NCBI GenBank assembly: GCA_963756905.1
Contig: CAVWPO010000009.1
Coordinates: 18,179 to 82,178 of the forward strand
DNA: 64,000 nt
From: an uncultured Alphaproteobacteria bacterium
Lineage (GTDB): Bacteria; Pseudomonadota; Alphaproteobacteria; Geminicoccales; Geminicoccaceae
Reading direction: 5' to 3'
Shown: in pieces, positions 7,479-27,322 of the stretch
Position numbering within the stretch: position 1 is the first letter of the stretch
How the letters are laid out: each line of letters starts with the position of its first letter
Program-made: the position numbers and the translations under genes
Notes under the pieces: model-generated
Told to the model about the DNA's origin: nothing
Database searches by the model: none
The model's input: only the letters and a program-made list of their open reading frames with translations

Positions 7479-7805
7479 TCAGGGCCGGGGGGCCGGCTGC
7501 CAGGGGCGACCCCACCCGGAGAGGCCGGCCAGCGCCAGCACGAGGGTCGCGATGATGATGCCCAGGCTCTCGCGCTCGGTCTCGATGTGGATCCAGCCCG
7601 CGGGCAGCGCCGGCCAGCACCAGAGGCTGCCGGCGATGGCGGCGGCGAGGCAGGCCAGATAGGCGCCGATCACGGGCGCACGCGGCGCCAGGCGCTCCGG
7701 CCGGAAAGCGGTGAGGCCTGCCCAGATCGCCGGAATCGCATAGATCAGGAGCCACAGGATCGCGTCCGGGTCGTTGTACTGGACCAGGGCGAACCCCGCG
7801 AGCAT
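7479..7805 (-). CDS. small 4-TM membrane protein (TMEM220-like), function unknown
   Basis: ORF 7479..7883. I prefer the internal Met (MLAGFALVQYNDPDAILWLLIYAIP) as the start. The protein is hydrophobic throughout. Confidence 0.45.
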   Translation of the reverse strand: MLAGFALVQYNDPDAILWLLIYAIPAIWAGLTAFRPERLAPRAPVIGAYLACLAAAIAGSLWCWPALPAGWIHIETERESLGIIIATLVLALAGLSGWGRPWQPAPRP

Positions 7806-8031
7806 CACGCACGAGCAACCATTGACCGTACGCACGGGCCCATCTCCCGGCCGGATGCTGCATGCCGGCTGGTATTCATCCAACCCTCATCATGCGCAAT
7901 CCCGGCCGCATTTGACAAGTCGGTCGGGACAACTTGCCATTTTCGGACTATGTTGTCATCGAGGGAGACGCCCCGGCCCGGTAACCGGGCCGCAGGCAGG
8001 GCGAAAATCGTCCAGGCGAAAGAAAGGTCCG

Positions 8032-9249
8032 ATGGCTCCAGAATCTCGCGTGGCCCAGCCCGGCAAGGCTGAAGACGCTCAGACCGCGGTGCACGTGCAG
8101 CGCTTCGCGGTCGCGTTCGAATATCCGGTCTATTTCACCGAGCGGCTGTTCGACCCGGGCAATCCGGCCCTGATCGAGGCGCTGGGAAGGCTGGAGCCAG
8201 AGCGCTGCCACCGCTGCCTGGTGTTCGTCGACGACGGCCTGCTCGCCAGCCGGCCCGGGCTCGGTGAGGAGATCGAGGGCTACGCCCGCACGCATGCCCG
8301 GCGCATGCAGCTGGTCTGCCCGCCCCTGCCGGTCCCGGGCGGCGAGCGGATCAAGAGCGAGCTGTTCTTCGTCGAGCAGATGCAGCAGCGCCTGCACGAG
8401 CACAACATCGACCGTCATTCCTACGTGATCGCGATCGGCGGCGGGGCAGTGCTCGACGCGGTCGGGCTGGTGGCGGCCGTGACCCATCGCGGCGTGCGCC
8501 TGATCCGGGTGCCGACCACCGTCCTCGCCCAGGACGACAGCGGCGTCGGGGTCAAGAACGGGGTCAACCTCTACGGCGTCAAGAACTTCGTCGGCACCTT
8601 CGCGCCGCCGTTTGCGGTCCTGAACGACCTCGAGCTGCTGACGGCGCTCTCGCCCCGCGACAAGATCGCGGGCATCGCCGAGGCGGTGAAGGTGGCGTTG
8701 ATCCGGGACGGTGCGTTCTTCGCCTGGCTCGAGCGCCATGCCGACGATCTGCTGACCTTCGAGCGCGCAGCCATGGCGGCGATGATCCGGCGCTGCGCCG
8801 AGCTGCACATGCATCAGATCGCCCACGGCGGCGACCCGTTCGAGACCGGCAGCGCGCGGCCGCTCGACTACGGCCACTGGTCGGCGCACAAGCTCGAGAG
8901 CCTGACCAAGCACCACGTCCGCCATGGCGAGGCGGTCGCGATCGGGATGGCGCTCGATGCCCGCTATTCGGTGCTGGCGGGCCTGCTCGCGGCGGGCGGG
9001 GAGGAGCGGATCTGCGCCCTGCTCGAGCATCTGGGCTTTCGCCTCTGGCATCCGGCGCTCGACCTGCCGAGGCAGGACGGCAGCCTCGCGATCCTCGAGG
9101 GTCTGCGCGAGTTCCGCGAGCATCTGGGCGGCGAGCTGACCGTGACCCTGCTCGAGGGCATCGGCCGCGGCGTCGAGGTCCACGAGATCGACGAGAGCCG
9201 CATGCGCGCTGCCATGATCTGGCTTCAGGAGCGGGACCGGACGCCATGA
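8032..9249 (+). CDS. eboD: EboD, 3-dehydroquinate-synthase-like sugar phosphate cyclase
   Basis: Track ORF 7774..9249, start moved to ATG 8032. DHQS-fold motifs IAIGGGAVLDAVGLVAAVTHRGVRLIRVPTT and DDSGVGVKNGVN. Coupled by an ATGA overlap to the next gene. Confidence 0.85.
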   Translation: MAPESRVAQPGKAEDAQTAVHVQRFAVAFEYPVYFTERLFDPGNPALIEALGRLEPERCHRCLVFVDDGLLASRPGLGEEIEGYARTHARRMQLVCPPLPVPGGERIKSELFFVEQMQQRLHEHNIDRHSYVIAIGGGAVLDAVGLVAAVTHRGVRLIRVPTTVLAQDDSGVGVKNGVNLYGVKNFVGTFAPPFAVLNDLELLTALSPRDKIAGIAEAVKVALIRDGAFFAWLERHADDLLTFERAAMAAMIRRCAELHMHQIAHGGDPFETGSARPLDYGHWSAHKLESLTKHHVRHGEAVAIGMALDARYSVLAGLLAAGGEERICALLEHLGFRLWHPALDLPRQDGSLAILEGLREFREHLGGELTVTLLEGIGRGVEVHEIDESRMRAAMIWLQERDRTP

Positions 9250-10463
9250 AGCTCGCCCCCACGAGTCGGGCCGATGCCGACGCCGCGCACCTGACCTATT
9301 GCAGCAACATCCATCCGGGCGAGACCTGGCCGGAGGTGTTGTCCAACCTGCGGCGCCACCTGCCGGCCATCAAAGCCGAGGTGGCGGCCGGGCGCGACTT
9401 CGGCGTCGGGCTCCGGCTGTCGGCGATCGCCGCCGAGGCGCTGCGCGAGCCCGCGGCCATGGCCGAGCTTCGGGACTTCCTCGGCACCAACGGGCTCTAC
9501 GTCTTCACGATCAATGGCTTTCCCTACGGCCCGTTTCACGGCGTCCGGGTCAAGGAGCAGGTCTATCAGCCCGACTGGCAGCATGCCGAACGGCTCGCCT
9601 ACACCGATCTTTTGGCCGATCTGCTGGCCGAGCTGCTCCCGGACGATCCGGCGCTCGACGGCAGCGTCAGCACGGTGCCCGGGACCTTCAAGCCGATCGC
9701 CGAGGCGCCGGGGGTGGTCGAGCGGATCGCCGGCAACCTGATCCGGCACGCGGCCCACCTGGTGCGCCTGCGCGAACGTACCGGGCGCACCATCGCGCTC
9801 GCCCTGGAGCCCGAGCCCTACTGCCTGCTCGAGACCATCGACGAGACGATCGCCTTCTTCGAGGAGCATCTGCTCGGGCCGGCGGCGGTCCGTGAGTTGC
9901 GCGAACTCACCGGCCTTGCGAGCGGGGAGGCCGAGGCGGCGCTCCGGCGCCATCTCGGCGTCTGCTACGACGTCTGTCATGCCGCGGTCGAGTTCGAGGA
10001 CCCGGCGGGCAGTCTGGAGGCCCTGCGAGGCGCCGGCATCGCCGTGCCCAAGCTGCAGCTGAGCGCGGCCCTCAAGATCGCCAGCGTCGGGCCCGAGACC
10101 GCCCGGCAGCTGCGGCCGTTCGACGAGCCGGTCTACCTGCACCAGGTGGTCGCGCGGGCGGGCGGACGGCTGACCCGCCACCTCGACCTGCCGCAGGCGC
10201 TCGCCACCCTGGATGCGAGCCAGGGCGCCGAATGGCGGGTGCATTTTCACGTCCCGATCTTCCTCGACCAGCTGCAGGACTTCTCGACCACGCAGGACTT
10301 CCTCCGCCAGATTCTGGCGCTCCACCGGCAGGCGCCGATCTCGCCGCATCTCGAGGTCGAGACCTACACCTGGGACGTGCTGCCCGTGCGCTACCGCGAG
10401 GCCGGCATCGCGAGCGCGATCGCCCGCGAGCTCGCCTGGACCCTGGACCAGCTGCGGGCATGA
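9246..10463 (+). CDS. eboE: EboE, xylose-isomerase-like TIM-barrel protein ('metabolite traffic protein')
   Basis: 405 aa, beginning LTYCSNIHPGETWPEV. ATGA overlaps at both ends (9246-9249 and 10460-10463). Its position between the cyclase and the prenyltransferase is typical of ebo clusters. Confidence 0.8.
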   Translation: MKLAPTSRADADAAHLTYCSNIHPGETWPEVLSNLRRHLPAIKAEVAAGRDFGVGLRLSAIAAEALREPAAMAELRDFLGTNGLYVFTINGFPYGPFHGVRVKEQVYQPDWQHAERLAYTDLLADLLAELLPDDPALDGSVSTVPGTFKPIAEAPGVVERIAGNLIRHAAHLVRLRERTGRTIALALEPEPYCLLETIDETIAFFEEHLLGPAAVRELRELTGLASGEAEAALRRHLGVCYDVCHAAVEFEDPAGSLEALRGAGIAVPKLQLSAALKIASVGPETARQLRPFDEPVYLHQVVARAGGRLTRHLDLPQALATLDASQGAEWRVHFHVPIFLDQLQDFSTTQDFLRQILALHRQAPISPHLEVETYTWDVLPVRYREAGIASAIARELAWTLDQLRA

Positions 10464-11332
10464 GCTGGCAGGTCGCGCTCAGGCTCGGCCGCGTCTCCAA
10501 CCTGCCGACCGTCTGGACCAACACGCTGGCCGGCATCGTGCTGGCGGGCGGTCACGCGCTCGATCCGCGGACCTTGCCGCTGCTCGTGGCGTTGTCCCTG
10601 TTTTACGTCGCCGGCATGTATCTGAACGATGCCTTCGATGCCGGGATCGACGCGATCGAGCGGCCCGAGCGCCCGATCCCGGCGGGCCTGGTCAGCGCCG
10701 ATACCGTGTTCGCGGCCGGCTTCGGGATGATGGCGCTCGGCCTTGGCGTGCTGCTCTGGGTTGGCTACGGCGTCCCGGCCGCGACCGGCATCGGCCCGGT
10801 GTTTGGCGGCCTCGGGCTCGGCGCGGCGATCGTGCTCTACAACCGGCGCCACAAGGGCAACCCCTTGAGCCCGGTGCTGATGGGCATCTGCCGGATGCTG
10901 GTCTACCTCACGGCCGGGCTCGCGATCGCGCCCGAGCTCCCGGCGCCGCTCCTGATCGGCGCGCTCTTGCTGCTCTGCTACCTGATCGGCCTCACCTACG
11001 TCGCCAAGCAGGAGACGCTGGGCGAGGTCCAGAACCTCTGGCCGCTCCTCTTTCTCGCGGCGCCGGTCGTCTATGGCCTGAGGATCGCGACCGAAGGCCC
11101 GGCGAGCGCCCTCCTGCTCCTGATCTTCGTCGCCTGGATCGGAGTCGCGCTCTGGTTCCTGAAGCGCCGCCGGCCGGGCGACGTGCCGCGCGCGGTGATC
11201 TGCCTGATCGCCGGCATTTCGCTCCTCGATGCGCTCCTGATCGCCGGCGCCGGCGACCACGGCGTCGCCGGCCTTGCGGTCGGCGGGTTCCTGCTCACCC
11301 TCGCCCTGCAGCGCTGGGTCGCCGGCACGTGA
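10460..11332 (+). CDS. eboC: EboC, UbiA-family prenyltransferase
   Basis: Last 290 codons of ORF 10232..11332, starting MSWQVALRLGRVSNLPTVWTN. Contains the Asp-rich UbiA motif YLNDAFDAGIDAIERPERPIPAG and multiple TM helices. Confidence 0.85.
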   Translation: MSWQVALRLGRVSNLPTVWTNTLAGIVLAGGHALDPRTLPLLVALSLFYVAGMYLNDAFDAGIDAIERPERPIPAGLVSADTVFAAGFGMMALGLGVLLWVGYGVPAATGIGPVFGGLGLGAAIVLYNRRHKGNPLSPVLMGICRMLVYLTAGLAIAPELPAPLLIGALLLLCYLIGLTYVAKQETLGEVQNLWPLLFLAAPVVYGLRIATEGPASALLLLIFVAWIGVALWFLKRRRPGDVPRAVICLIAGISLLDALLIAGAGDHGVAGLAVGGFLLTLALQRWVAGT

Positions 11333-11474
11333 TCAAAAACCGCCAAGATTAAAGAAAGCTAAGTGCCAGATTAAAAACTGATGATCCGGTTGCTGCTCAA
11401 CAATTTCTGTGGTGCTAGTTCGTCGCAGCTAATCAAGGGCGCAGCGGTTGCGCGAAAAACGGGGGGCAATACGA

Positions 11475-12788
11475 ATGCGGCGCACGCACTATCTGGGCAC
11501 AGCGTCGGCGCTGATGCTTGGGCTGAGCGCGATCAGCGCGCCTGCCAAGGCCGACATGACGGTCAAGCTGGAGGAGGTGGCATCGGGACTGAGCGCGCCG
11601 CTCGCTCTGGTGCAGCCGGCCGGCGACGATCGCCGCTTCATCATCGAGCAGCCGGGGCGGGTTCGCATCCTGACCAAGGACGGCGAGCTTCTCGACGAGC
11701 CGTTTCTCGACATCCGGCAGAAGATCGTGCACCAGCTCTCGGACTTCGATGAGCGCGGCCTGCTCGGGATCGCCTTCCACCCGGACTTCGCCCACAATCA
11801 CAAGTTCTACATCGCCTACTCGACCTACCTGAACGGTCACGGCGATCCGGGCCTGCAGCTCTGGTGGGACCATACCAACGTGGTCGCCGAGTACACGGTC
11901 TCCAAGGACGACGCCAATGTCGCCGACGTGACCTCGGAGCACATCCTGACCGCGATCGACTGGCCGCAGTTCAACCACAACGGCCATTCGATCAACTTCG
12001 GGCCCGATGGCATGCTGTACATCTCGACCGGCGATGGCGGCTACGCCAACGACTGGGGCATCGGCCACAACGTCGAGTTCGGCAACGGCCAGGATCTGAC
12101 CGACCTGCACGGCAAGATGCTGCGGATCGACGTCAACAACGCGTCCGAGGGCCACAACTACGCCATCCCCAAGGACAACCCGTTCGTCAACGATCAGCAG
12201 GCGATGCACGAGATCTACGGCTATGGCCTGCGCAATCCCTGGCGCTGCTCGTTCGACATGGGCGGCGACCACCAGCTGTTCTGCGGCAACGTCGGGCAGA
12301 ACAGCTTCGAGTCGATCGTGGTCGTCGGCAAGGGCAGCAACGCAGGCTGGCGGCGCATGGAGGCCAGCCACTGCTTCGACCTGATGGCGCCGAACAACCA
12401 TCCGGACAGCTGCGACCAGAGCGGGATCACCCCGCCGATCCTCGAGTACAAGAACTGCACGGCCAAGCCCCAGGGCTGCGATGGCATCTCGATCACCGGC
12501 GGCTACGTCTACCGCGGCAGCGTCAAGGACTGGGACGGCAAGTACTTCTTCGGCGATTGGAGCAAGACCTTCGGGGCCATGAACGGCCAGCTGTTCGTGG
12601 CGACGAAGGGCAGCGATGGCAAGTGGACCAAGGAGCATGTCACGGTCGCCAACATGCAGGGTCCGCTGCCTTACGTCCTCGCTTTCGGGCAGGACGCGGC
12701 TGGTGAGGTCTACGTTCTGACCTCGGTGACCACCGGCCCGGTGGGCGGCCTCGACAAGGTGTATCGGATCCGTCCCGCCACCCCATGA
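11475..12788 (+). CDS. PQQ-dependent (GSDH/sorbosone-dehydrogenase family) sugar dehydrogenase, periplasmic
   Basis: Signal peptide MRRTHYLGTASALMLGLSAISAPAKA. Beta-propeller motifs GLLGIAFHPDF, HNGHSINFGPDGMLYISTGDGG, LHGKMLRIDV and YGYGLRNPWRCSFD. Preceded by a 142-bp AT-rich spacer. Confidence 0.8.
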   Translation: MRRTHYLGTASALMLGLSAISAPAKADMTVKLEEVASGLSAPLALVQPAGDDRRFIIEQPGRVRILTKDGELLDEPFLDIRQKIVHQLSDFDERGLLGIAFHPDFAHNHKFYIAYSTYLNGHGDPGLQLWWDHTNVVAEYTVSKDDANVADVTSEHILTAIDWPQFNHNGHSINFGPDGMLYISTGDGGYANDWGIGHNVEFGNGQDLTDLHGKMLRIDVNNASEGHNYAIPKDNPFVNDQQAMHEIYGYGLRNPWRCSFDMGGDHQLFCGNVGQNSFESIVVVGKGSNAGWRRMEASHCFDLMAPNNHPDSCDQSGITPPILEYKNCTAKPQGCDGISITGGYVYRGSVKDWDGKYFFGDWSKTFGAMNGQLFVATKGSDGKWTKEHVTVANMQGPLPYVLAFGQDAAGEVYVLTSVTTGPVGGLDKVYRIRPATP

Positions 12789-13228
12789 CTGCAGCAGTAG
12801 TTCTCCTCTTGCTTGAGGGGTGGTCGCGCCGGCGCGGCGCCGCCGCCCCTCTTTTTTCCCGCGCCGGCCCGCGCCGGCGGGCAGGCGGGCGGCTGACGCT
12901 GGCGCTGGCGGCGATCGGCCCGGTTCTCCTGACCCTGGCGGCGGGCGGCGCCGCGGCCGATCCGGTGTTCACCGATGCCTATCTCGCCGACCCGGCCAAC
13001 GTCGCGCTCGGCAAGAAACTGTTCAAGCAGCAATGCGCGCTCTGCCACGGCCACCTCGCCTATCCCGGCAAGGCGCCGCATCTCAAGCCCAAGCCGCTCG
13101 CCCCCGATGACATCTACGCCCGGATCACCTATGGCTACGGCAAGATGCCGGCCTGGGAGGACGTGTTCACCGACGCGGAGCGGATGGCGATCACCGCCTA
13201 TCTGAAGAGCCCCAACTTTTCCAACTAG
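12785..13228 (+). CDS. c-type cytochrome (class I)
   Basis: Single heme motif CALCHG and a distal Met region YGKMPAW. ATGA overlap with the dehydrogenase gene. The N-terminal start is uncertain. Confidence 0.75.
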   Translation: MTAAVVLLLLEGWSRRRGAAAPLFSRAGPRRRAGGRLTLALAAIGPVLLTLAAGGAAADPVFTDAYLADPANVALGKKLFKQQCALCHGHLAYPGKAPHLKPKPLAPDDIYARITYGYGKMPAWEDVFTDAERMAITAYLKSPNFSN

Positions 13229-13291
13229 CCGCGGACCCCGCGCCCCCGTCTAAGCTCGGGCCAGAGGCAACACCGCAACCGGGGGCAGGGC

Positions 13292-13732
13292 ATGGGGTGG
13301 AGGCTGGTCATGGCATGGGCTGGGATGGCGACGCTGGTCGGGCTCGCGGCCGGCCAGGCGCTCGCGCAGAACGATCAGGCGCCGGCCGGGCAGGCGCCAG
13401 CCAATCCGATCCCGCACGACCAGGCGCTGGCCGACGTCGAGCACTTCACCGGCGGCGATGCCGAGCACGGCAACCAGCTGTTCCAGCGCTATTGTCGGGG
13501 CTGTCACGGGCCGGACGGACGCGGCGCGGGCGAGACCTTCATGCCGCACATCGGCAATCTCACCAAAAAGGATTATATCGAGTTCCTCCCCGACGGCTTT
13601 TTGTATACAGTGATCACGGAAGGGGGGGCCGCGGTCGGGAAGAGCGGCTTTATGCCGTCCTGGAAGTCGACGCTGAGCGACCAGGACATCAAAGACGTGA
13701 TCGCCTTCATCCGGACCCTGCCGACCTACTGA
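13292..13732 (+). CDS. c-type cytochrome (class I), signal peptide
   Basis: Signal peptide ending AGQALAQ, heme motif CRGCHG, distal FMPSW. Confidence 0.8.
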   Translation: MGWRLVMAWAGMATLVGLAAGQALAQNDQAPAGQAPANPIPHDQALADVEHFTGGDAEHGNQLFQRYCRGCHGPDGRGAGETFMPHIGNLTKKDYIEFLPDGFLYTVITEGGAAVGKSGFMPSWKSTLSDQDIKDVIAFIRTLPTY

Positions 13733-13793
13733 GCAATCTGCGCGACCAAAAAACGCGGCGACGCCTGGTCGCCGTCCATCGCAGGGGGACGTA

Positions 13794-15462
13794 ATGAGAA
13801 TCTGGTCCTGTCTAGCGCTCTCGGCTGGAGCCTTGCTGCTTCCGGCCTCGCTGGCCTATGCCGACATGGGCACCACCGCCGCGGCCGGCAGCGGCAACTC
13901 CGGCGGCTGGGCAAAGCGCACGGCGATCGAGCCCAACCCGGCCAAGGTCGTCGTGCCCGACGGCTACGAGGTCGGCGTGTTCGTCAAGGGGCTGAACGCG
14001 CCATCGGCGGCCACCGTCGACGGCGACGGCAATCTCTGGGTCGTGGTCTCGCCGCCGCTGCTCGGCAGCCCGGTCGCCGACGAGTTCGAATCCGCACGCA
14101 TCAAAGTGTTCGACAAGAACGGCAAGTTCATCAAGGACATCGGGGTCGACAAGTTCACGACCGCGATGAACGAGCTCTCCTACTGCCCCGACAACCACAA
14201 GATCTATGTGCCGGAGTATGCGGAGAAGATCTGGGAGGTCGATGGCATCAACAGCGAGCCCAAGCTGATCATCAAGGACCTGCCGATCGGCGACCACCGC
14301 AACGGCGGCGTCACGTGCAAGGACGGCTATCTCTATTTCGCGCTCGGGTTCCCGAGCAACTCGGGCTTCGCCGATCCGGACAACCACGGCTGGACCGACA
14401 TCCCGAACGATCCGTTCTGGGTCAAGCACCAAGGACGGCTTCGGCACCACGCCGCATGACCCGATGTGCCGCGACATCGTCCACACCGGCCTCAACATGA
14501 TGTCGTCCGACGGCCGCATGACCGGCGCTTTGCTGCCGGTCGGCGTGCCGGCCAAGCCCGGCATGAAGATCAAGGCGCAGGTGCCCTGCGGCGGCTCGAT
14601 CATGCGGGTCAAGCTCGGACGACAAAGGGTCCGACGGCATCTACCCGCACGAGAAGATGGAGGTCTACGCCTTCGGCTTCCGCAACCAGTCGGGCGTCGC
14701 CTTCGGGCCCAAGGGCTCGCGCTTCGAGAACGCGCTCGCGGTCTCCGACAACGGCGCCAACGACCTCGGCAACCGGCGGATCGCGAACGGCGCCGAGAAG
14801 CTCTGGATCGTGACCGAGAAGGGGCAGGACGGCGGCTTCCCCGACAAGGAGGGCATGCTGTTCGTCAACACCAAGCGCTATGGCTGGGACTTCTATCGGG
14901 GCAACCCGGTGCTGCGCCCCTATCCGCAACCTTTACATCGGCGACAAGCCGTTCATCCCGCCAGGTCTACCCCTACCACTTGCAGAAGCACGTCGACGGC
15001 AACCGCGGCGTGCCGCTGATCATCGCCAACCCCGACCCGAACGGCTACATCAACCCGGTGCTCGAGTGGGACACCAACAACCCGATCGACGGCATCGCCT
15101 GGAGCAACAACGACTTCAGCAGCCAGAACGACCTGTACGGGGCGGTCTACGGCATTCTCGACACCGGTCCTGAGAGCCTGACGCCGACCTGGCCGGCAGT
15201 CCTCCAGGTCCAGTTCCTGGAGCCCACCGGCGTCAAGTGGTCGTACTTCGCCCGCAACATCGAGATGGGCCCGAACGCCTATCAGAAGCCCGAGAACCGG
15301 GGCGGTCTGGAGCGGCCGAACGACGTGGTCTTCTCCAACGACGGCAAGATCATGTACGTGGTCGACTACGGCGAGGTGTTCGGCGACTTCACCAAGCCGA
15401 CGCCGTTCTATACGACGCCGAAGTCGGGCGTGATCTGGACGATCAAGAAGAAGGCCATGTAA
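13794..15462 (+). pseudogene. second GSDH/PQQ-type beta-propeller dehydrogenase, interrupted by four +1 frameshifts as sequenced
   Basis: Signal peptide MRIWSCLALSAGALLLPASLAYA. The reading path goes frame 0 to about 14430 (WVKH), then frame 1 to about 14617 (IMRVKL), frame 2 to about 14927 (VLRPYP), frame 0 to about 14964 (NLYIGDKPFIPP), and frame 1 to the stop at 15462. The motif YAFGFRNQSGVAFGP is typical of the family. This could be true decay or an assembly error. Confidence 0.65.
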
Positions 15463-15492
15463 CCTGCGCGAGCAGGAACGCGAGCTGAGCTC

Positions 15493-16443
15493 GTGATGGC
15501 GGGGGCGCTGGCTGACCTTATGGCCAGCGCCCCTCTGCCTCCCGGCCCACGGCACGGCTGGGACACCGGAGTAAGCCCTTTGCCGACGGCTTCCGACCTG
15601 CTGAACCTCTGGCTGCGCCGGCAGTTGCCGGCGGCCGCCTCTGCGTGGCTCGGGGAACAACTCTCGAAGCTCGCGGCCGATGCTGGCGACCGTGACCTGT
15701 ACGTCTCGCTCGGCCTCGTGCCGCGCAAGCTCGGCCGGCCCGATCTCGACCTCGTCGAAGCCGACCTGGCGCAGGCGAGCGCCGCCCGCGCCGGTTGGGA
15801 CCCGCGTGGCTGGAGCGTCGATCAGGCGGCGCGCATCCTGATCCTCCTGGTGGCCGGCGGCAGCGGCGAGCGCTTCGCCACGCGCTTCATGCAGCTCTGC
15901 CGGACCGCGGACGTCGTCGAGGCGATCGCGTTCTACCGCGGCCTGCCGCTCTATCCCGATCCGGAGCGGCTCGAGGCGCAGGCGGCCGAAGGCACCCGCT
16001 CCAACATGCGTGCGGTGTTCGAGGCGGTGGCCCATCGCAACCCCTATCCGCGCGAGCAGTTCTCCGAGAACCGCTGGAACCACATGGTGCTGAAGGCGCT
16101 GTTCGTGGGCTCCACGCTCGGGCCCATCCAGGGCCTCGATGAGCGCGCCAACCCGGCGCTCGCGCGCATGCTCTGCGACTACGCGCACGAGCGCTGGGCC
16201 GCCGGCCGGCCGGTCAGCCCGGAGCTGTGGCGCTGCGTCGGCGCCTTCGCCGACGCCGAGGCGCTGGCCGATCTGCAGCGCGTGCTCGCGACCGGCGCCG
16301 CGATGGAGCGCAAGGCCGCGGCGCTGGCGCTCGCCGCCTGCCCGGCAACCCGCGCCAAGGAGCTCCTGGCCGGCGCCCCCGACCTCGCGGCAGCGGTTGA
16401 GCGGGGTGCGCTGACCTGGGATACTCTCGGCCCAGCGTCTTGA
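15493..16443 (+). CDS. eboA: EboA family protein
   Basis: 316 aa. Resembles EboA-domain proteins as I recall them (AIAFYRGLPLYPDPE, NPYPREQFSENRWNHMVLKALF, ERWAAGRPVSPELW). It sits immediately upstream of the TatD-type gene, as in ebo operons. The start is GTG 15493 or ATG 15496. Confidence 0.7.
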   Translation: MMAGALADLMASAPLPPGPRHGWDTGVSPLPTASDLLNLWLRRQLPAAASAWLGEQLSKLAADAGDRDLYVSLGLVPRKLGRPDLDLVEADLAQASAARAGWDPRGWSVDQAARILILLVAGGSGERFATRFMQLCRTADVVEAIAFYRGLPLYPDPERLEAQAAEGTRSNMRAVFEAVAHRNPYPREQFSENRWNHMVLKALFVGSTLGPIQGLDERANPALARMLCDYAHERWAAGRPVSPELWRCVGAFADAEALADLQRVLATGAAMERKAAALALAACPATRAKELLAGAPDLAAAVERGALTWDTLGPAS

Positions 16444-16496
16444 CATCGGCGGCGGCGCGCCTCTTCGGACCGGCGCGCGCTTGTGGGAGACCAGGC

Positions 16497-17423
16497 ATGA
16501 TGTTCATCGATCCGCACACCCACATGATCTCGCGGACCACCGACGACTACGAGGCGATGGCTGCGGCCGGCATCGTGGCCCTGATCGAGCCCGCGTTCTG
16601 GATCGGCCAGCCGCGCACCCACGTCGGCACCTATATCGACTACCTCTCGGCGATCGTCGGTTGGGAGCGCTTCCGCGCCGGCCAGTTCGGCATCCGCCAC
16701 TACTGCACGATCGGCCTCAACTCGAAGGAGGCCAACAACGAGGAGCTGGCCGAGGGGGTCATGGAGATCCTGCCGCGCTTTGCCTTGAAGGAGGGCGTGG
16801 TCGCGATCGGCGAGATCGGCTACGACGAGCAGACCGACCTCGAGGACAAATACTTCCGCCTCCAGCTCGAGCTGGCCAAGGAGTTGGAGGTGCCGGTCAT
16901 GATCCATACGCCGCATCGCGACAAGAAGCGGGGCACCACCCGCTCCATGGACGTGATTGAGGAGCACGGGCTCGCGCCCTCGAAGGTCGTGATCGACCAC
17001 AACAACGAGGAGACCGTGCAGGAGGTCCTGGAGCGCGGCTTCTGGGCGGGCTTCTCGATCTATCCCTCGACCAAGATGGGCAACGAGCGCATGGTCGAGA
17101 TCGTCCGCCAGTACGGGCCCGAGCGGATCATCGTCGATTCCGCCTGCGACTGGGGCATCTCGGAGCCGCTGGGCGTGCCGAAGACCGCGAAGCTTGCCCT
17201 GCAGCGCGGCGTCCCCGAAGAGCACGTCCGCCTGATCTGCTACCAGAACGCGCTCGACGCCTACGGTCAGAGCGGCCAGATCAAGGAGGACGACTGGCTG
17301 AACCCGCCGGCGATCGACCAGCGCACGCTCTACGAGGGCAACTCGATCCTGCGCGGCGGCCGCGAGCCCCGGGTCGAGGAGCCCAAGGTCAAGCGCCCCA
17401 TGGACGAGCTCCTGATCGAGTAG
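16497..17423 (+). CDS. eboB: EboB, TatD-family metal-dependent hydrolase
   Basis: Start moved to ATG 16497 (MMFIDPHTHMISRTTDDYE, an HxH metal motif). Also contains IGEIGYDEQT, VMIHTPHRDK and VVIDHNNEET. Confidence 0.85.
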   Translation: MMFIDPHTHMISRTTDDYEAMAAAGIVALIEPAFWIGQPRTHVGTYIDYLSAIVGWERFRAGQFGIRHYCTIGLNSKEANNEELAEGVMEILPRFALKEGVVAIGEIGYDEQTDLEDKYFRLQLELAKELEVPVMIHTPHRDKKRGTTRSMDVIEEHGLAPSKVVIDHNNEETVQEVLERGFWAGFSIYPSTKMGNERMVEIVRQYGPERIIVDSACDWGISEPLGVPKTAKLALQRGVPEEHVRLICYQNALDAYGQSGQIKEDDWLNPPAIDQRTLYEGNSILRGGREPRVEEPKVKRPMDELLIE

Positions 17424-17545
17424 GACGCGGCCCGGCCGGCTGGGGCCGAGCCCCGACGGTTGCGATGGAATAAACGGGCGATGTCCGGTGTCTCCAGATG
17501 GGTCGCGCGCCGCGATGCCGGACGGCGCGGATCGGGGAGGGATTG

Positions 17546-18191
17546 ATGATCAAGCGGAGACTGGCGTGGACGTTCGTGATCGCGGCCGCGGCGCTCGCCA
17601 CGGCGCTGCCGGCCAGCGCCGAGGAGCAGAAGCCCTATCGGGCGCGCGGCACCTTGGAGGCCGTGCAGGGTGACCAGCTGACGGTCAAGACCCGGGAGGG
17701 CGAGACCCTCGACGTCACGTTGAAGCCCGACAGCCGGGTGCTGGATCGTGCGACCGGCCAGCCTCGACCAGATCAAGAAGGGCGACTACGTCGGCCTGAC
17801 CTCGATCGATGCGGGCGGCAAGCGGATCGCGATCGAGGCCCACATCTTCGCCGAGGACCTGCGCGGCGCGTCCGAAGGCCACGTGCCCTGGGACCTGATC
17901 AAGGAGCCCAACACCATGACCAACGCGACCGTCGCCGAGGTCGAGTCGGTCGGTGCCCAGCACGAGCTCAAGGTGAACTACAAGCAGGGCCAGGGCGACC
18001 AGAAGACCGCGGGCAGCCAGACCATCTACGTGCCGGACGATCTGTCGGTGGTGCGCCTCGAGAAGGCGCCCGATCGTTCGGTGCTGGCACCGGGCAAGGC
18101 CACCTTCATGGTGCTCCGGGACGAGGCCGACGGCAGCCGCACGGCGCTCGCGGTGGTCGTGGGTGTGGACGGCGCCTCGCCGCCGATGTGA
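17546..18191 (+). CDS. periplasmic protein of unknown function (DUF5666-like), one +1 frameshift near 17744
   Basis: Signal peptide MIKRRLAWTFVIAAAALATALPASA. ORF 17498.. and ORF 17748..18191 join as ...LKPDSRVL/IVRPASLDQIKKGDYVG. The total length of 646 nt is 1 mod 3. Confidence 0.5.
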
Positions 18192-18245
18192 GACCCGGTC
18201 GACGAAGCCCTGATCCCCCGAGGGCCGCGCTCGCTCGCATCGTGC

Positions 18246-18809
18246 TCAAGGGCCACCGGGTCCAGGTTCCGGGCCGCCGGTTCGCCGACGGCCTTTGGCG
18301 GGACGTCCTCGATCGTGGGCGCCGCCCGTGCGCTCGACCGGCGGCGGCGCCGCGGCGGGAGCTCCGACCGGCAGGTCGTGGTACTCCAGCGACCACTCGC
18401 GCATGAACCTCACCCGTTCGGGCAGGATGCGATACACGATCAGCTCGGGGTTGTCGGGCGAGCCGAGATAGTGGCGCAGCAGCGGGTTCGCCGCCCAGAT
18501 CTCCCGCAGCAGCGCCCCGTCGGTCACCACCTCGGCCCGGCCGGAGATCCGCAGCTGGTCGTGATCGGCGCTCAGATAGGCGAGCTCGACCCTGGGATTG
18601 GCCGCGATCTCCTGGGTCTTGTGGTAGCTCTTCAGGTTGGCGACGTAGACCGTGAAGCCATCGGTGCGCACCGGCGACACCGGGCGCAGGCGCGGCCTGT
18701 CGCCATCCAGCGTGGCGAGGAACGGAAAGCGATCCGCCTCGATGACTGCCTGCGCGAGCCGCGGCAGCTCGCTCCGATCGACCGGCTTTGCGGTCGGTTT
18801 CCTGGTCAT
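18246..18809 (-). CDS. pyridoxamine-5'-phosphate-oxidase (PPOX/split-barrel flavin or deazaflavin) family protein
   Basis: C-terminal part of track ORF 18246..20282 (MTRKPTAKPVDRSELPRLAQAVIEADRFPFLATLDGDRPRLRPVSP...). A GGTGGAGAGG Shine-Dalgarno sequence precedes ATG 18809. An alternative in-frame ATG at 18881 overlaps the reconstructed eboF stop (ATGA). The Pro/Gly/Arg-rich C-terminal tail is doubtful. Confidence 0.6.
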   Translation of the reverse strand: MTRKPTAKPVDRSELPRLAQAVIEADRFPFLATLDGDRPRLRPVSPVRTDGFTVYVANLKSYHKTQEIAANPRVELAYLSADHDQLRISGRAEVVTDGALLREIWAANPLLRHYLGSPDNPELIVYRILPERVRFMREWSLEYHDLPVGAPAAAPPPVERTGGAHDRGRPAKGRRRTGGPEPGPGGP

Positions 18810-18877
18810 GGCCACCTCTCCACCGCCTCTGCATGGGGCTCGGTCAACCGATGCGCGGTCGCTCAGCAGGAGCCGGG

Positions 18878-20282
18878 TCATGGTCGCAGGCGCGGCTCGC
18901 GGCCGAAGACATGGTCGAGCACCAGGGCCTTGAAGGCCGTAGCTTGGACGGGGCCTTCCGGCAACAGCTCGGGCGCGCTCGAGATCACCAGCGGCCCGTG
19001 CGTCGGGATCGTCGGTGATCCGGCCGTGCGAGCCCTTCACCAGGCTTGTGTCCTTGAGCGAGATCACATCCAGGAGCGTGCGTGCCCCGAGCTTGCGCTT
19101 GAGGAGGCGCCAGCCGATCGCGAGCGGCGGCAGGCGGATCGCCGGATCGACGAACAGCTCGACCGGGTCGTAGCCGGGCTTCCGGTGGATGTCGACGGTG
19201 CGGGCGAAATCGGGGGCGCGCGCGTCGTCGAGCCAGTAGTAGTAGCTGAACCAGCGATCCGGGCGGGCGATCGCGACCAGCTCGCCGGCGCGCGGATGGT
19301 CGAGCCCGAAGGCGCGCTTGCCGGCCTCATCCAGCACCCGCTCGACGCCGTCGACGCCCTCCAGGAGCGCCTTGACCTCGGCGACGCTGGCGCCTGCCTG
19401 GACGTAGACATGGGCCACCTGGTGATCGGCGAGGGCGAAGGCGCCTGAGGCGCCGGCATCCAGGACCTCGCGGCCGAGCTCGAGGCGGACCTGGATCAGG
19501 CCCGCCCGCCGCAGCGCGCGGTTGATGTGCACGGCGTCGGTCACCGGCGTGATGCCGTACTCCGAGACCACGATGATCCGGGCGCCGTCCCGCTCGGCCT
19601 GCCCGATCAGCTCGCCGGCCAGGGCATCGATCTCCTCGAGGTCCTGCTGCAGGCGCGGATGGCCGAGGTCGGGCCCGAGCCGCTGCAGATTGTAGTCGAG
19701 ATGCGGCAGATAGCAGAGCGTGAGGGTCGGCTTGCGGGTCTGGCGCACGTGCAGGGTCGCCCGGGCGATCCACCGGCTCGACGTGATGTCGGCGGCCGGC
19801 CCCCAGAACTTGAACAGCGGGAACCGGCCGAGCCTGGCATCGAGCTCGTCGTGGAGCTCGGGCGGCCAGGCGTAGTGGTCCGGAATCTTGCGGCCGTCGG
19901 CCGGGTACATCGGCCGCGGCGTGGCGCTCCAGTCGGCCGATGAGTACATGTTGTACCACCAGAACATCTGGGCGCAGGTGAAGCCCGGATCGCGCCGTTT
20001 GGCGGCCTCCCAGATCTTCTCGCCCGCGATCAGCCGGTTCGACTGGCGCCACAGCCAGACCTCGGCCTGGTCGCGAAAGTACCAGCCGTTGGCGACCGCG
20101 CCATGGCCCGACGGCGGCAGGCCTGTCAGCAGCGTCGACTGCACCGTGCAGGTGACCGCCGGCGTCACCGTGGCGAGCGGCCGCAGACCGCCCGCCGCCG
20201 CCAGGCGCTGCAGGTGGGGCGTGTGCCGCCCGAGCAGGGCGGGGGTCAGGCCGACCACGAGGATGACCAGGGTTGGTTGCAT
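18878..20282 (-). CDS. eboF: EboF, alkaline-phosphatase/nucleotide pyrophosphatase-phosphodiesterase family; one +1 frameshift near 19001
   Basis: N-terminus MQPTLVILVVGLTPALLGRHTPHL...TCTVQSTLLTGLPPSGHG (metal/nucleophile Thr region). After ...SHGRITDDPD the sense continues one frame over as HGPLVISSAPELLPEGPVQATAFKALVLDHVFGREPRLRP, with the stop at 18878. The length of 1405 nt is 1 mod 3. Confidence 0.8.
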
Positions 20283-20680
20283 GGGATCGGGAAGCCGCCT
20301 CTGAAACCCCAGGGACCATGACGTCGTGCGCGCGACGCGACCCCGCCCGGCCGCCGACCGGCGGACAGGTCAGGTCGCCACCCAGACCTCTTCTGAGGCT
20401 TGGTACATCATCGCGCCGCGCCTGACATCCAAAATCATTCGCGATCATTCAGAGTCATCTGCAAGCATATCCGCAGTGCGATCGCTGGTCTTCGCCTGGG
20501 CTTGCCGCCGTCAAACCCACGCTCGATGGTTGATTTCCAGGGTTGATCCGGAATCGGGACTTCCGAGAATCGGGCCAAGTTACAGATCTGCCCGCCGATG
20601 GCACGAATCTGCGCCTCCCGGGTCACACATCTGGCGCAGGATGATCTTTGCCGCCGACAAGTCAAGCCGGGCGATCAAGC

Positions 20681-20725
20681 GGTCTCCAGTCCATCGTCTG
20701 GAGGCCGCCTCCAGGGGTGGAGACC
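20681..20725. other. nested hairpin element in the long eboF upstream spacer
   Basis: Outer arms GGTCTCCA (20681-20688) and TGGAGACC (20718-20725) enclose an inner hairpin CTGGAGG-CCG-CCTCCAG (20698-20714). No U tract follows on either strand. Function unknown. Confidence 0.3.
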
Positions 20726-20952
20726 GAATACCCTTGAATGCCCGGGAATCCTCAGGTTCATGGACATTGTCCGACGGTCGAACGGTTGATCTGGAATCAA
20801 CCTCCAGCCTGGGAATCAATCTAGTCTCCACCGCTGATGTGGCAGATGGAGATACAGATGTGACGCATGGTGGCGGCCGAACCCCGCGCGCCGATGACCG
20901 TGGCCGGCGCCTCGAGGCTCGCGGGGCCGGAGGCTCGAAGGGTCGGCGGGCC

Positions 20953-21789
20953 TCACTTCAGGTAGGCCGTGTGCTGCTCGATCACCGGCATGACCGCATC
21001 GCGCCCCTCCGGCGGCAGGGCGAACAGCGCGCGATCGAGGCCGGCCGCCCGGCACTGCTCGACGTAGCCGGCATCCGGCTTGGTGCCGAACAGGGTCGTC
21101 GACACGGTCTTGATGTCGCGCCCGGCCTCATCGGCGAAGCTCTTGAGCCGCGCCATCTCGGCCTTGGGGTCATCGAAGCCCCGCCCGCGCGGGAACCAGC
21201 CGTCGCAGAACTCCATCACGCGCCTGAGCGTGTACTTGGTCTCGCCGCCCAAGAGGATCGGCGGATGCGGCTTCTGCAAGGGCTTCGGCCAGGACCAGAT
21301 TTTCTCGAACTTCGTGAACTCGCCGTCATAGGCCGCCTCGTCCTGGGTCCAGATCGCCTGCATCGCCTTGGCGCGATCGACCATGACCTTGAAGCGGTCC
21401 TCGAACCTGGTGCCGTGGTTCTCCATCTCCTCGGCGTTCCAGCCCGCCCCGATCCCGAACTCGAAGCGGCCATGGGAGATCAGATCGAGGGTCGCGACGA
21501 TCTTCGCGGTCACGATCGGATCGCGCTCGGTCAGCAGGCTGACCCCGGTCCCAAGGCGCAGCGTCTTGGTGACGGCGGCCGCCGCCGCGAGGCCGACGTA
21601 GGGGTCGAGCGTGTGCGAATACTGCCTGGGCAGCTCCGGCCCGCCCGGCCAGGGCGACCTGCGGGCGGCCGGGATGTGGGTGTGCTCGGGCACGAACAGC
21701 AATTCGTAGCCGTGCGCCTCGAGCTCCTTTGCCACCTCGACGATGGGCATCGAATAGTCGGTGGCGAAGTAGTAGAAGCCGATCTTCAT
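20953..21789 (-). CDS. LLM-class (luciferase-like) putative F420-dependent oxidoreductase
   Basis: Last 278 codons of ORF 20953..22389 (MKIGFYYFATDYSMPIVEVAKELEAHGYELLFVPEHTHIP...GRFEFGIGAGWNAEEMENHG). It lies next to the F420 biosynthesis genes. Confidence 0.75.
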   Translation of the reverse strand: MKIGFYYFATDYSMPIVEVAKELEAHGYELLFVPEHTHIPAARRSPWPGGPELPRQYSHTLDPYVGLAAAAAVTKTLRLGTGVSLLTERDPIVTAKIVATLDLISHGRFEFGIGAGWNAEEMENHGTRFEDRFKVMVDRAKAMQAIWTQDEAAYDGEFTKFEKIWSWPKPLQKPHPPILLGGETKYTLRRVMEFCDGWFPRGRGFDDPKAEMARLKSFADEAGRDIKTVSTTLFGTKPDAGYVEQCRAAGLDRALFALPPEGRDAVMPVIEQHTAYLK

Positions 21790-27317: not shown

Positions 27318-27322
27318 CCCTG

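What the first reader, a model, noticed from the sequence alone, without database searches (positions are those of the whole stretch)
8032..20282. Rearranged ebo (eboA-F) cluster with a periplasmic dehydrogenase/cytochrome c cassette inserted in its middle
Seen: all six Ebo families are present. They are EboD (DHQS-like sugar-phosphate cyclase, 8032-9249), EboE (TIM barrel, 9246-10463), EboC (UbiA prenyltransferase, 10460-11332), EboA (15493-16443), EboB (TatD hydrolase, 16497-17423) and EboF (alkaline-phosphatase/NPP type, 18878-20282, opposite strand). eboD, eboE and eboC are chained by ATGA overlaps. The arrangement I know from cyanobacteria, pseudomonads and eustigmatophyte plastids is a collinear eboABCDEF operon. 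Here the order is D-E-C, four extra genes, A-B, one extra gene, then an inverted PPOX gene and eboF. Established, as I recall (Yurchenko et al. 2016; Klicki et al. 2018; Burlinson et al. 2013): the ebo product is chemically undefined. The cluster is needed to move a scytonemin precursor to the periplasm in Nostoc punctiforme. It also corresponds to the nematode-repellent EDB locus of Pseudomonas fluorescens NZI7. Inference: the enzyme set predicts a prenylated cyclitol-like lipid. The signal-peptide-bearing quinoprotein-type dehydrogenases and cytochromes c sit between eboC and eboA. This suggests the head group or its cargo is oxidised in the periplasm, with electrons passed to c-type cytochromes. 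I am not aware of this extension of the ebo system having been described.
Basis: partly seen in the sequence, partly recalled or inferred. Interest (0 to 1): 0.85.

Follow-up and report, generated by a model that had tools for sequence, protein, structure and literature searches.

The report
ebo cluster with conserved periplasmic dehydrogenase–cytochrome genes
This is a genuine ebo (thallusin-type meroterpenoid) gene cluster of an alphaproteobacterium, and its secreted dehydrogenase-like propeller plus cytochrome c genes are a conserved companion of ebo genes across many Proteobacteria, not a strain-specific insertion, which makes them candidates for the pathway's still-unassigned oxidation step.

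Summary
All six Ebo families lie at the stated coordinates and the ATGA overlaps are real. The raw sequence, however, carries six single-base insertions: four in the second propeller gene, one in the gene after eboB and one in eboF. Frameshifts also hit ilvC and mreB, so these are assembly errors, not pseudogenes.

The "inserted cassette" is two gene pairs, each a secreted sGDH-fold propeller with a monoheme cytochrome c. It is not strain-specific:
- Of 76 genome loci holding an orthologue of the first propeller, 69 have ebo genes within 10 kb.
- 73 of 74 have the cytochrome c directly downstream.
- The pair stays inside the cluster through 21 different gene orders, in Alpha-, Beta- and Gammaproteobacteria.

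[quoted passage not shown] A 2026 preprint assigns ebo genes to saccharoquinoline/thallusin biosynthesis and leaves the oxidative step without an enzyme.

Best reading (inferred): these propellers oxidise the exported hydroxyquinoline meroterpenoid in the periplasm and pass electrons to cytochrome c. I found no description of this module in the papers I could search. It is a new variant of a known system.

The parts
7479..7883 (-). Small TMEM220-like membrane protein, transcribed divergently from eboD. The start codon is uncertain.
   Evidence: A tblastn hit at 7847-7536 matches a family found next to eboD in 55 loci. Homologues carry PF15071.
8032..9249 (+). eboD, a DHQS-like sugar-phosphate cyclase.
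   Evidence: NF004852 scores 584 bits against a cut-off of 333. PF01761 and PF24621 also match.
9246..10463 (+). eboE, a TIM-barrel protein. Its start overlaps the eboD stop as ATGA.
   Evidence: NF035939 scores 467 bits against a cut-off of 250. The overlap was read directly from the sequence.
10460..11332 (+). eboC-position UbiA-family prenyltransferase. Its start overlaps the eboE stop as ATGA.
   Evidence: PF01040 scores 54 bits. The EboC equivalog gives 107 bits, below its cut-off of 250. The D-E-C block is conserved across loci.
11333..11474 (.). AT-rich 142-nt intergenic spacer in a roughly 68% GC region. It may hold an internal promoter or regulatory region.
   Evidence: Read directly from the sequence. 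The consensus promoter scan found nothing there.
11475..12788 (+). Secreted GSDH-family (sGDH/HHIP-like) six-bladed propeller, a putative dehydrogenase.
   Evidence: PF07995 scores 123 bits. The N-terminus has a signal-like sequence ending AKA|D. Equivalents of sGDH His144 and Arg228/Asn229 align and are among the near-invariant (at least 98%) positions across about 120 relatives. It is ebo-linked in 69 of 76 loci.
12785..13228 (+). Monoheme c-type cytochrome (CytC1), overlapping the GSDH stop as ATGA.
   Evidence: PF13442 scores 62 bits, and the motif CALCH is present. A homologue lies within 1 kb downstream of GSDH in 73 of 74 loci.
13292..13732 (+). Second monoheme c-type cytochrome (CytC2) with a signal peptide. 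It is paired with the second propeller.
   Evidence: PF13442 and PF00034 match, and the motif CRGCH is present. It always lies directly upstream of Prop2.
13794..15462 (+). Second secreted propeller (Prop2, about 549 aa), a divergent sGDH-like fold. In this assembly it is interrupted by four +1 insertions at 14429, 14617, 14930 and 14969.
   Evidence: Three-frame reading. Indels relative to L024. Intact homologues are 68-86% identical. The AF2 model has pTM 0.70, and its best Foldseek hits are PQQ pyranose/sugar dehydrogenases. The RN motif aligns to sGDH.
15493..16443 (+). eboA.
   Evidence: NF035938 scores 172 bits against a cut-off of 50. Orthologues carry PF28008.
16497..17423 (+). eboB, a TatD-like metal hydrolase.
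   Evidence: PF01026 scores 66 bits. It follows eboA in nearly every surveyed locus that holds both (exceptions L080, L083). It is 72-97% identical across the surveyed loci, apart from about 55% in two Thermodesulfobacteriota MAGs.
17546..18191 (+). Secreted protein of unknown family (about 214 aa), found only in the closest relatives. It has a +1 insertion at 17745.
   Evidence: Three-frame reading and indel comparison. There is no family hit. It is present in L001, L011, L024, L086 and L087.
18246..18809 (-). PPOX-class flavin- or F420-dependent oxidoreductase. The C-terminal end is uncertain.
   Evidence: PF01243 scores 63 bits. TIGR03618 gives a weak match. It lies next to ebo genes in L001, L011, L024, L086, L087 and L125.
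18878..20282 (-). eboF, of the nucleotide pyrophosphatase/alkaline-phosphatase type. It has a +1 insertion at about 19001.
   Evidence: PF01663 scores 213 bits. The frame change was seen. It is 92% identical to the intact L024 copy.

Best explanation
The region is the ebo biosynthetic cluster of an uncultured alphaproteobacterium. Its nearest relative is the Microflora Danica MAG MFD00822.bin.2.115, with affinity to Geminicoccaceae.

**Cytoplasmic and membrane enzymes.** EboD, E, C, A, B and F are expected to build a prenylated hydroxyquinoline-carboxylate meroterpenoid of the saccharoquinoline/thallusin type.

**Periplasmic redox modules.** Two conserved modules are embedded in the cluster, GSDH-family propeller -> CytC1 and CytC2 -> Prop2.

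**Proposed mechanism (inferred, not shown).**
1. The amphiphilic product reaches the outer face of the inner membrane.
2. Its 6,7,8-trihydroxyquinoline head group is dehydrogenated (2 e-, quinol/catechol to o-quinone) in the active-site pocket of the sGDH-like propeller.
3. The electrons pass to the partner monoheme cytochrome c and on to the respiratory chain.
4. The o-quinone is the activated intermediate for the ring-opening that converts saccharoquinoline-type precursors into thallusin-type tricarboxylates, or into another oxidised end product.

**Shown.** Gene identities, secretion signals, heme motifs, conservation of the catalytic His/Arg/Asn, and tight conserved linkage.

**Inferred.** The substrate, the direction of electron flow and the link to the missing oxidative step.
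For: - HMM identities of all the genes.
- The GSDH orthologue group (58-93% identity) is ebo-linked in 69 of 76 genome loci, and 36 of those have all six ebo genes. A cytochrome c lies directly downstream in 73 of 74.
- There are 21 different gene orders among 46 complete loci, and in every one GSDH and CytC1 stay adjacent and inside the cluster.
- The linkage spans Alphaproteobacteria, Granulosicoccaceae, a Burkholderiaceae isolate and two MAGs labelled Thermodesulfobacteriota.
- In the reverse survey, 13 of 17 EboB-anchored metagenome loci of at least 10 kb with EboB at 80% identity or more carry the pair.
- Prop2 with its own cytochrome is ebo-linked in 2 of 3 independently anchored contexts. 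In L167 it stands in the cluster without GSDH.
- sGDH His144 and Arg228/Asn229 align to near-invariant (at least 98% conserved) residues of GSDH. The Arg/Asn motif also aligns in Prop2.
- The preprint states that the oxidative conversion of saccharoquinoline to thallusin has no assigned enzyme.
- The preprint's Table S3 lists a fused cytochrome c + COG2133 gene among the 91 genes specific to Maribacter producers.
- In Nostoc, ebo function is tied to a periplasmic oxidative step carried out by a secreted protein, ScyE.
Against: - Thallusin producers in Bacteroidota, Actinomycetota and Cyanobacteriota have ebo clusters without these genes, according to the preprint's description. The module is therefore not universally required.
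- About half of the EboB-anchored loci of at least 10 kb lack it, and only 2 of 12 carry it when EboB identity is below 80%.
- Characterised sGDH-family enzymes oxidise sugar hemiacetals, not catechols.
- Ring cleavage to a diacid needs oxygen insertion, which a dehydrogenase alone does not provide.
- The best solved-structure sequence match of GSDH is the non-enzymatic HHIP propeller (150 bits, against 54-67 bits for PQQ enzymes).
- The PQQ-carboxylate-binding Arg406/Arg408 of sGDH could not be aligned.
- There is no expression or chemical data for this organism.
- The thallusin assignment itself rests on a preprint.
Confidence: 0.45

Rival explanations
1. The propellers carry out classical sGDH chemistry. 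They are PQQ-dependent periplasmic sugar or cyclitol dehydrogenases that act on an exported cyclitol, such as the inosose or a glycosylated or cyclitol-bearing intermediate. Alternatively they salvage or catabolise such a compound, with cytochrome c as the electron acceptor.
For: - PF07995 membership, with conserved His/Arg/Asn.
- Foldseek places Prop2 nearest to PQQ pyranose and aldose dehydrogenases.
- EboD makes an inosose.
Against: - The cyclitol steps use phosphorylated cytoplasmic substrates.
- The labelling reported in the preprint indicates that the cyclitol is consumed into the aromatic ring.
- Nothing explains why a general sugar dehydrogenase would stay locked to ebo genes through 21 rearrangements.
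Confidence: 0.2
2. The dependency runs the other way. The ebo product, a membrane-anchored quinoline o-quinone/quinol, serves as the cofactor or dedicated electron carrier of these propellers, which oxidise some other periplasmic substrate.
For: - The oxidised 8-hydroxyquinoline-2-carboxylate head group has the same O,N,O chelating edge and adjacent o-quinone as PQQ (chemical reasoning, not tested here).
- GSDH keeps the residues that face the quinone (His, Arg, Asn). The Arg pair that holds the extra PQQ carboxylates could not be aligned.
- Linkage is as strong as expected for an enzyme and the biosynthesis of its cofactor.
Against: - Thallusin and saccharoquinoline are found in culture supernatants and act as external signals.
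- Many ebo clusters lack the propellers.
- No biochemical precedent exists.
Confidence: 0.12
3. The ebo product is a prenylated lipid carrier that moves a separate cargo to the periplasm, where the propellers oxidise that cargo. It is analogous to the scytonemin monomer and ScyE.
For: - The Klicki 2018 phenotype in Nostoc.
- The extra proteins are secreted.
- Prop2 has a weak blade-level similarity to the ScyD/ScyE model (24.6 bits).
Against: - The preprint attributes the scytonemin phenotype to indirect effects and shows that the ebo genes themselves make the meroterpenoid.
- No cargo pathway is encoded nearby in the window.
- The ScyE match is far below its cut-off of 80 bits.
Confidence: 0.1
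4. The neighbourhood carries no shared function. The GSDH-cytochrome pair is an independent respiratory dehydrogenase that merely lies near the ebo genes.
For: - Seven of 76 GSDH loci show no ebo gene in the available flank. Three of these (L041, L045, L077) have full 10-kb flanks.
- L166 has Prop2 without ebo genes.
Against: - 69 of 76 loci are linked, and the linkage persists across three proteobacterial classes and 21 gene orders.
- The GSDH and CytC1 genes overlap in ATGA, and the cluster is compact.
Confidence: 0.05

Closest known systems
ebo (eboA-F) cluster / EDB locus, proposed as the thallusin-saccharoquinoline biosynthetic genes (Yurchenko 2016; Klicki 2018; bioRxiv 10.64898/2026.05.21.724671)
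   Same: All six families are present. The core genes eboB, C, E and F are present. The D-E-C and A-B blocks and the opposite-strand eboF match other Pseudomonadota clusters. A UbiA prenyltransferase and a DHQS-like cyclase are both there.
   Different: It carries two secreted propeller-cytochrome c pairs, a TMEM220-like gene, a secreted protein of unknown family and a PPOX gene. None of these is discussed in the papers I could search. EboC falls below the NCBIfam equivalog cut-off. The product is untested in this lineage.
Soluble PQQ glucose/aldose dehydrogenases (sGDH, Asd/YliI; Pfam GSDH PF07995) and fungal AA12 pyranose dehydrogenase with its cytochrome domain
   Same: The proteins are periplasmic six-bladed propellers. 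The catalytic His and the Arg-Asn pair that faces the quinone are conserved. Each has a dedicated heme partner for electron exit.
   Different: By sequence, GSDH is closer to the HHIP propeller than to any PQQ enzyme. The PQQ carboxylate-binding arginines were not found. Prop2 is about 100-200 residues longer and fails the Pfam model. The substrate is presumed to be aromatic rather than a sugar.
ScyE/ScyD, the periplasmic proteins of the scytonemin operon, which sits next to ebo genes in cyanobacteria
   Same: In both systems a secreted protein encoded beside ebo genes is credited with a periplasmic oxidative step.
   Different: Only a single-blade similarity was found (24.6 bits against a cut-off of 80). 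No cytochrome partner is known for ScyE. The pathway is different.
Quinoprotein alcohol dehydrogenase with cytochrome c550 (PedE/PedF-type pairs)
   Same: The operon logic is the same: a periplasmic quinoprotein gene lies next to its small c-type cytochrome acceptor gene.
   Different: The propeller family is different (eight-bladed PF01011). CytC1 matches PedF only weakly (24 bits against a cut-off of 122).

Membership tests
ebo cluster (eboA-F) | EboD: a DHQS-like cyclase of the PRK06203 type. | tested here: met
   NF004852 scores 584 bits against a cut-off of 333.
ebo cluster (eboA-F) | EboE: a TIM-barrel equivalog. | tested here: met
   NF035939 scores 467 bits against a cut-off of 250.
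ebo cluster (eboA-F) | EboC: a UbiA-like prenyltransferase equivalog. | tested here: inconclusive
   PF01040 passes. NF035940 scores 107 bits, below its cut-off of 250, and nearly ties with the SCO3242 family at 102 bits. The gene's position overlapping eboE is conserved.
ebo cluster (eboA-F) | EboA domain. | tested here: met
   NF035938 scores 172 bits against a cut-off of 50. The family model gives 255 bits, below its cut-off of 320. Orthologues carry PF28008.
ebo cluster (eboA-F) | EboB (TatD-like) and EboF (NPP/alkaline-phosphatase type), co-localised with the other genes. | tested here: met
   PF01026 and PF01663 pass. There is no dedicated equivalog model for either. The A-B adjacency and F linkage are seen in most surveyed loci. 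The eboF frame needs one correction.
Thallusin/saccharoquinoline producers (preprint definition) | [quoted passage not shown] | tested here: met
   The definition comes from the preprint.
Thallusin/saccharoquinoline producers (preprint definition) | Thallusin or saccharoquinoline is actually produced. | not testable with these tools
   This needs culture and LC-HRMS. The organism is known only as a MAG.
PQQ-dependent soluble sugar dehydrogenase (GSDH, PF07995) | The family HMM is passed. | tested here: met
   GSDH 11475-12788 scores 123 bits against a cut-off of 25. Prop2 has no PF07995 hit.
PQQ-dependent soluble sugar dehydrogenase (GSDH, PF07995) | The catalytic His (sGDH His144) and Arg228/Asn229 at the quinone are present. 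| tested here: met
   A profile alignment to the verified 1C9U sequence pairs His168 and Arg253/Asn254 with these residues. The positions are at least 98% conserved in about 120 relatives. In Prop2 only the Arg-Asn motif aligned.
PQQ-dependent soluble sugar dehydrogenase (GSDH, PF07995) | The basic residues that bind the PQQ carboxylates (Lys377, Arg406, Arg408) are present. | tested here: inconclusive
   The HMM alignment stops at sGDH residue 269. Manual alignment suggests an invariant Pro-Tyr in their place. The best PDB sequence match is cofactor-less HHIP.
PQQ-dependent soluble sugar dehydrogenase (GSDH, PF07995) | PQQ is available, with pqqABCDE in the genome, and PQQ is bound. | not testable with these tools
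   Only 20-kb loci and one 64-kb window were available. No pqq genes were seen in the parts of the window that were annotated.
Class I c-type cytochrome | A CXXCH heme motif, the family HMM and an export signal are present. | tested here: met
   PF13442 scores 62 and 49 bits. The motifs CALCH and CRGCH are present, and both proteins have hydrophobic N-termini.
ScyD/ScyE family | The family HMM NF033206 is passed. | tested here: not met
   The score is 24.6 bits against a cut-off of 80, covering one blade only.

The most novel reading that the evidence does not exclude
The sGDH-fold propellers do not use PQQ at all. Their quinone pocket binds the ebo-made 8-hydroxyquinoline-2-carboxylate head group, which has the same O,N,O metal-chelating edge and adjacent o-quinone as PQQ. 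The head group would serve either as a dedicated substrate (a quinoline-quinol:cytochrome c oxidoreductase that triggers ring opening to thallusin) or as a new lipid-anchored, PQQ-like cofactor. This would define a new quinoprotein class and supply the missing oxidative step of thallusin biosynthesis in Proteobacteria.
Probability: 0.15. Interest if true: 0.85.

Novelty: new variant of a known kind. Interest (0 to 1): 0.66.

Why it matters
The ebo cluster occurs in thousands of genomes. Only recently was it tied to a product, thallusin, a picomolar morphogen for green seaweeds. The preprint that makes this link leaves the oxidative conversion of saccharoquinoline to thallusin without an enzyme.

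A periplasmic propeller-cytochrome c pair that stays locked to ebo genes across three proteobacterial classes is a concrete candidate for that step, or for a lineage-specific oxidised derivative. It can be tested genetically, because several cultivable strains carry it.

It would also extend the chemistry of the sGDH/HHIP-like propeller family beyond sugars. In addition, it gives a mechanistic parallel to the periplasmic, ScyE-dependent step seen beside ebo genes in cyanobacteria.

Tried and rejected
- An exact-sequence lookup of the window's EboE found no record.
- Rfam found nothing in the window.
- The consensus promoter and terminator scan was at background level.
- I considered real pseudogenisation of Prop2, because four of the six insertions fall in one gene. 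I rejected it because ilvC and mreB are also frameshifted and the translated frames remain about 86% identical to intact homologues.
- I considered a true EboF-PPOX fusion, because the raw ORF is continuous. I rejected it because the conserved EboF C-terminus and stop lie in the +1 frame, and L024 keeps the two genes separate.
- Homology of Prop2 to ScyE rests only on a one-blade match below the cut-off.
- Profile-profile comparison of GSDH with Prop2 aligned only the RN motif, at 2% probability.
- The PDB sequence search with Prop2 gave only designed propeller blades.
- I tried to find the GSDH of the validated producer Tranquillimonas by searching with the Phaeobacter orthologue. It was not among the 120 listed hits.
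- Burlinson 2013 and Tanoeyadi 2024 are not held in the library. The three extra EDB genes of Pseudomonas could therefore not be compared.
- Literature searches for ebo with PQQ or with cytochrome c returned nothing relevant.

Full report
**What is in the sequence**

The window is about 70% GC.
- EboD 8032-9249 scores 584 bits on NF004852.
- EboE 9246-10463 scores 467 bits on NF035939.
- EboA 15493-16443 scores 172 bits on the EboA domain model.
- EboB 16497-17423 matches TatD.
- EboF matches PF01663 at 213 bits.
- A UbiA-family protein lies at 10460-11332. It reaches only 107 bits on the EboC equivalog, whose cut-off is 250.

The ATGA overlaps eboD/eboE and eboE/eboC are real. A third joins the GSDH gene to the first cytochrome gene at 12785-12788.

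Four genes lie between eboC and eboA:
- A GSDH-family propeller at 11475-12788 (PF07995, 123 bits).
- Two monoheme c-type cytochromes at 12785-13228 and 13292-13732.
- One further gene at 13794-15462, here called Prop2.

All four, and the gene after eboB (17546-18191), begin with signal-peptide-like sequences.

**Sequence quality**

Prop2 reads correctly only if the frame is changed four times. The gene after eboB needs one change and eboF needs one. Locus L024, a Microflora Danica alphaproteobacterial MAG, is 90% identical in DNA and has the same gene order. Aligned against it, these changes are single-base insertions at 14429, 14617, 14930, 14969, 17745 and 19001. L024 has uninterrupted Prop2 and eboF.

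The insertion in eboF makes the raw ORF run on into the PPOX gene as a 678-aa 'fusion'. The conserved EboF C-terminus and its stop at 18878 lie in the +1 frame.

Frameshifts also interrupt ilvC, mreB and a 2-hydroxyacid dehydrogenase elsewhere in the window. I therefore read them all as assembly errors, not gene decay.

**Is the inserted cassette strain-specific? No**

A scan of one genome per species with the GSDH protein returned 80 loci at 58-93% identity. They come from Geminicoccaceae, Rhodobacteraceae, Aurantimonadaceae, Rhizobiaceae, Thalassobaculaceae, Kiloniellales and Granulosicoccaceae, plus two MAGs labelled Thermodesulfobacteriota.

I then ran tblastn against these loci with the window's proteins:
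- 69 of the 76 loci with usable flank contain ebo genes within 10 kb, and 36 contain all six.
- A CytC1-like gene lies within 1 kb downstream of GSDH in 73 of 74.
- Among 46 complete loci there are 21 different gene orders. In every one, GSDH and CytC1 stay together and inside the cluster.

Gene-call look-ups with Pfam labels confirm the same picture in bacterium HR40, a Rhodobacteraceae genome, a Burkholderiaceae isolate and a Tepidamorphus-type contig.

In the reverse direction I anchored on EboB in metagenome contigs. Fifteen of 29 loci of at least 10 kb carry the pair. The figure is 13 of 17 when EboB is at least 80% identical and 2 of 12 below that. The module is therefore a common accessory of a large proteobacterial branch of ebo clusters, but it is not universal.

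The second pair, CytC2 followed by Prop2, occurs in a subset of loci, mostly Geminicoccaceae-like. Three Prop2-anchored look-ups always showed the cytochrome directly upstream. Two of the three had ebo genes alongside, and one of those had no GSDH.

Unbiased clustering of the remaining ORFs found other recurrent neighbours:
- A TMEM220-like small membrane protein divergent from eboD, in 55 loci. The window has it at 7479-7883 on the minus strand.
- A VTT/DedA membrane protein in 40 loci, absent from the window.
- A type-1 IPP isomerase in 34 loci, absent from the window.

**What the propellers are**

The best solved-structure sequence match of GSDH is the Hedgehog-interacting protein propeller at 150 bits. 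PQQ sugar dehydrogenases score 54-67 bits. I confirmed the sGDH sequence against 1C9U and aligned it to a profile of the orthologues. sGDH His144 pairs with His168, and Arg228/Asn229 pair with Arg253/Asn254. These positions lie in blocks conserved in at least 98% of about 120 relatives. The alignment does not reach the arginines that hold the PQQ carboxylates, so PQQ dependence is unproven.

Prop2 has intact homologues of about 549 aa at 68-86% identity. It has no Pfam domain. An AlphaFold model of moderate quality (pLDDT 61, pTM 0.70) has as its best Foldseek matches the PQQ pyranose dehydrogenase, PQQ aldose dehydrogenases, sGDH and HHIP. Its GFRNQSG motif aligns to sGDH GHRNPQG. A match to the ScyD/ScyE model is one blade long and far below the cut-off.

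**State of knowledge**

- A May 2026 preprint ties the ebo genes to saccharoquinoline and thallusin. Its evidence is producer/non-producer genomics, aspartate labelling, EboC-catalysed farnesylation of trihydroxyquinaldic acid, and deletions of eboB, C, E and F.
- The preprint notes a different gene order in Pseudomonadota. It states that no enzyme is known for the oxidative conversion of saccharoquinoline to thallusin.
- Its main text never mentions cytochromes, PQQ or dehydrogenases. Its Table S3, however, lists a fused cytochrome c + COG2133 gene among the 91 genes specific to Maribacter producers, far from the ebo genes.
- Yurchenko 2016 noted inserted uncharacterised genes but left them unanalysed.
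- Klicki 2018 remarked that non-ebo ORFs of the Pseudomonas EDB locus carry signal peptides, and placed an oxidative step (ScyE) in the periplasm.
- Searches for ebo with PQQ or cytochrome c found nothing relevant.

**Interpretation**

Persistent linkage through many rearrangements, the dedicated cytochrome partners, the export signals and the retained quinone-facing catalytic residues together argue for periplasmic redox enzymes that work on the ebo product.

I propose that the propellers dehydrogenate the trihydroxyquinoline head group to its o-quinone and pass electrons to cytochrome c. This would prime the ring opening that gives thallusin-type compounds. The proposal is inference.

Weaknesses of this reading:
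- Producers in other phyla lack the genes in their clusters.
- Known family members oxidise sugars.
- Ring cleavage also needs oxygen insertion.

Rival readings are a sugar or cyclitol dehydrogenase role, a reversed dependency in which the ebo product is a PQQ-like cofactor or carrier, the older cargo-export model, and mere neighbourhood.

The PPOX gene, together with the downstream F420-dependent LLM oxidoreductase, cofC, fgd, fbiC and cofD, forms an F420 island. Its link to ebo is suggestive. L085 has cofC and LLM beside eboD, and L125 has PPOX beside eboD. I did not establish the link.

**Verdict**

The conserved propeller-cytochrome module appears to be undescribed and can be tested experimentally in cultivable strains. 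I rate it a new variant of a known system.

Noticed in passing
window 18246-29061: An F420 gene island lies directly beside the ebo cluster in what appears to be an alphaproteobacterium. It comprises PPOX-class and LLM-class F420-type oxidoreductases, cofC, F420-dependent glucose-6-phosphate dehydrogenase (fgd), a fused fbiC (two radical-SAM halves) and cofD. L024 shares it. L085 has cofC and LLM next to eboD, and L125 has PPOX next to eboD.
   Followed up: partly
window ~58,800 (ilvC), ~53,600 (mreB), ~30,900 (2-hydroxyacid dehydrogenase): Housekeeping genes are split by frameshifts, so the assembly carries roughly 0.2-0.5 indel errors per kb. L001 and L024 show similar damage. ORF-based gene calls in this window are unreliable.
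   Followed up: partly
window 16497-17423 and loci L002-L165: EboB is by far the most conserved protein of the cluster. It is 72-97% identical across Alpha-, Beta- and Gammaproteobacteria, whereas EboA, EboC and EboE are mostly 40-65% identical.
   Followed up: no
L004 14591-15907, L015, L080, L100, L110, L114, L125, L133, L144, L162: A second, distant GSDH paralogue (30-36% identical to the window's GSDH, matching PF07995 in L004) lies within ebo clusters in these loci, directly beside eboF in L004, L110 and L133. This suggests that several propeller lineages have been recruited to ebo clusters.
   Followed up: no
L116 and L131: These compact clusters have the order D-A-B-B'-E-F-C. They carry a second EboB-like gene at about 40% identity and no GSDH or cytochrome.
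   Followed up: no
L169 15609-18532 (Burkholderiaceae bacterium FT117): A nitroreductase, an ABM monooxygenase and an FMO-like flavin monooxygenase lie immediately after eboC. These are further candidate tailoring oxidoreductases in a cultivable strain.
   Followed up: no
window 11333-11474: A 142-nt AT-rich spacer separates eboC from the GSDH gene in an otherwise GC-rich, tightly packed cluster. It may be an internal promoter or regulatory site.
   Followed up: partly
window 13756-13774: A GC-rich hairpin (GGCGAC...GTCGCC) preceded by an A-run lies between CytC2 and Prop2. It scores as a terminator only on the minus strand, where no gene ends.
   Followed up: no
many loci, e.g. L017 8278-8949, L109 10917-11555, L170 11842-12426: A VTT/DedA-type membrane protein (40 loci) and a type-1 IPP isomerase (34 loci) commonly sit between eboB and the GSDH gene. 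Neither is present in the window.
   Followed up: partly
preprint 10.64898/2026.05.21.724671, Table S3, gene 788: A fused cytochrome c + glucose/arabinose dehydrogenase (COG2010+COG2133) gene is among the 91 genes found only in thallusin-producing Maribacter. The authors do not discuss it.
   Followed up: partly
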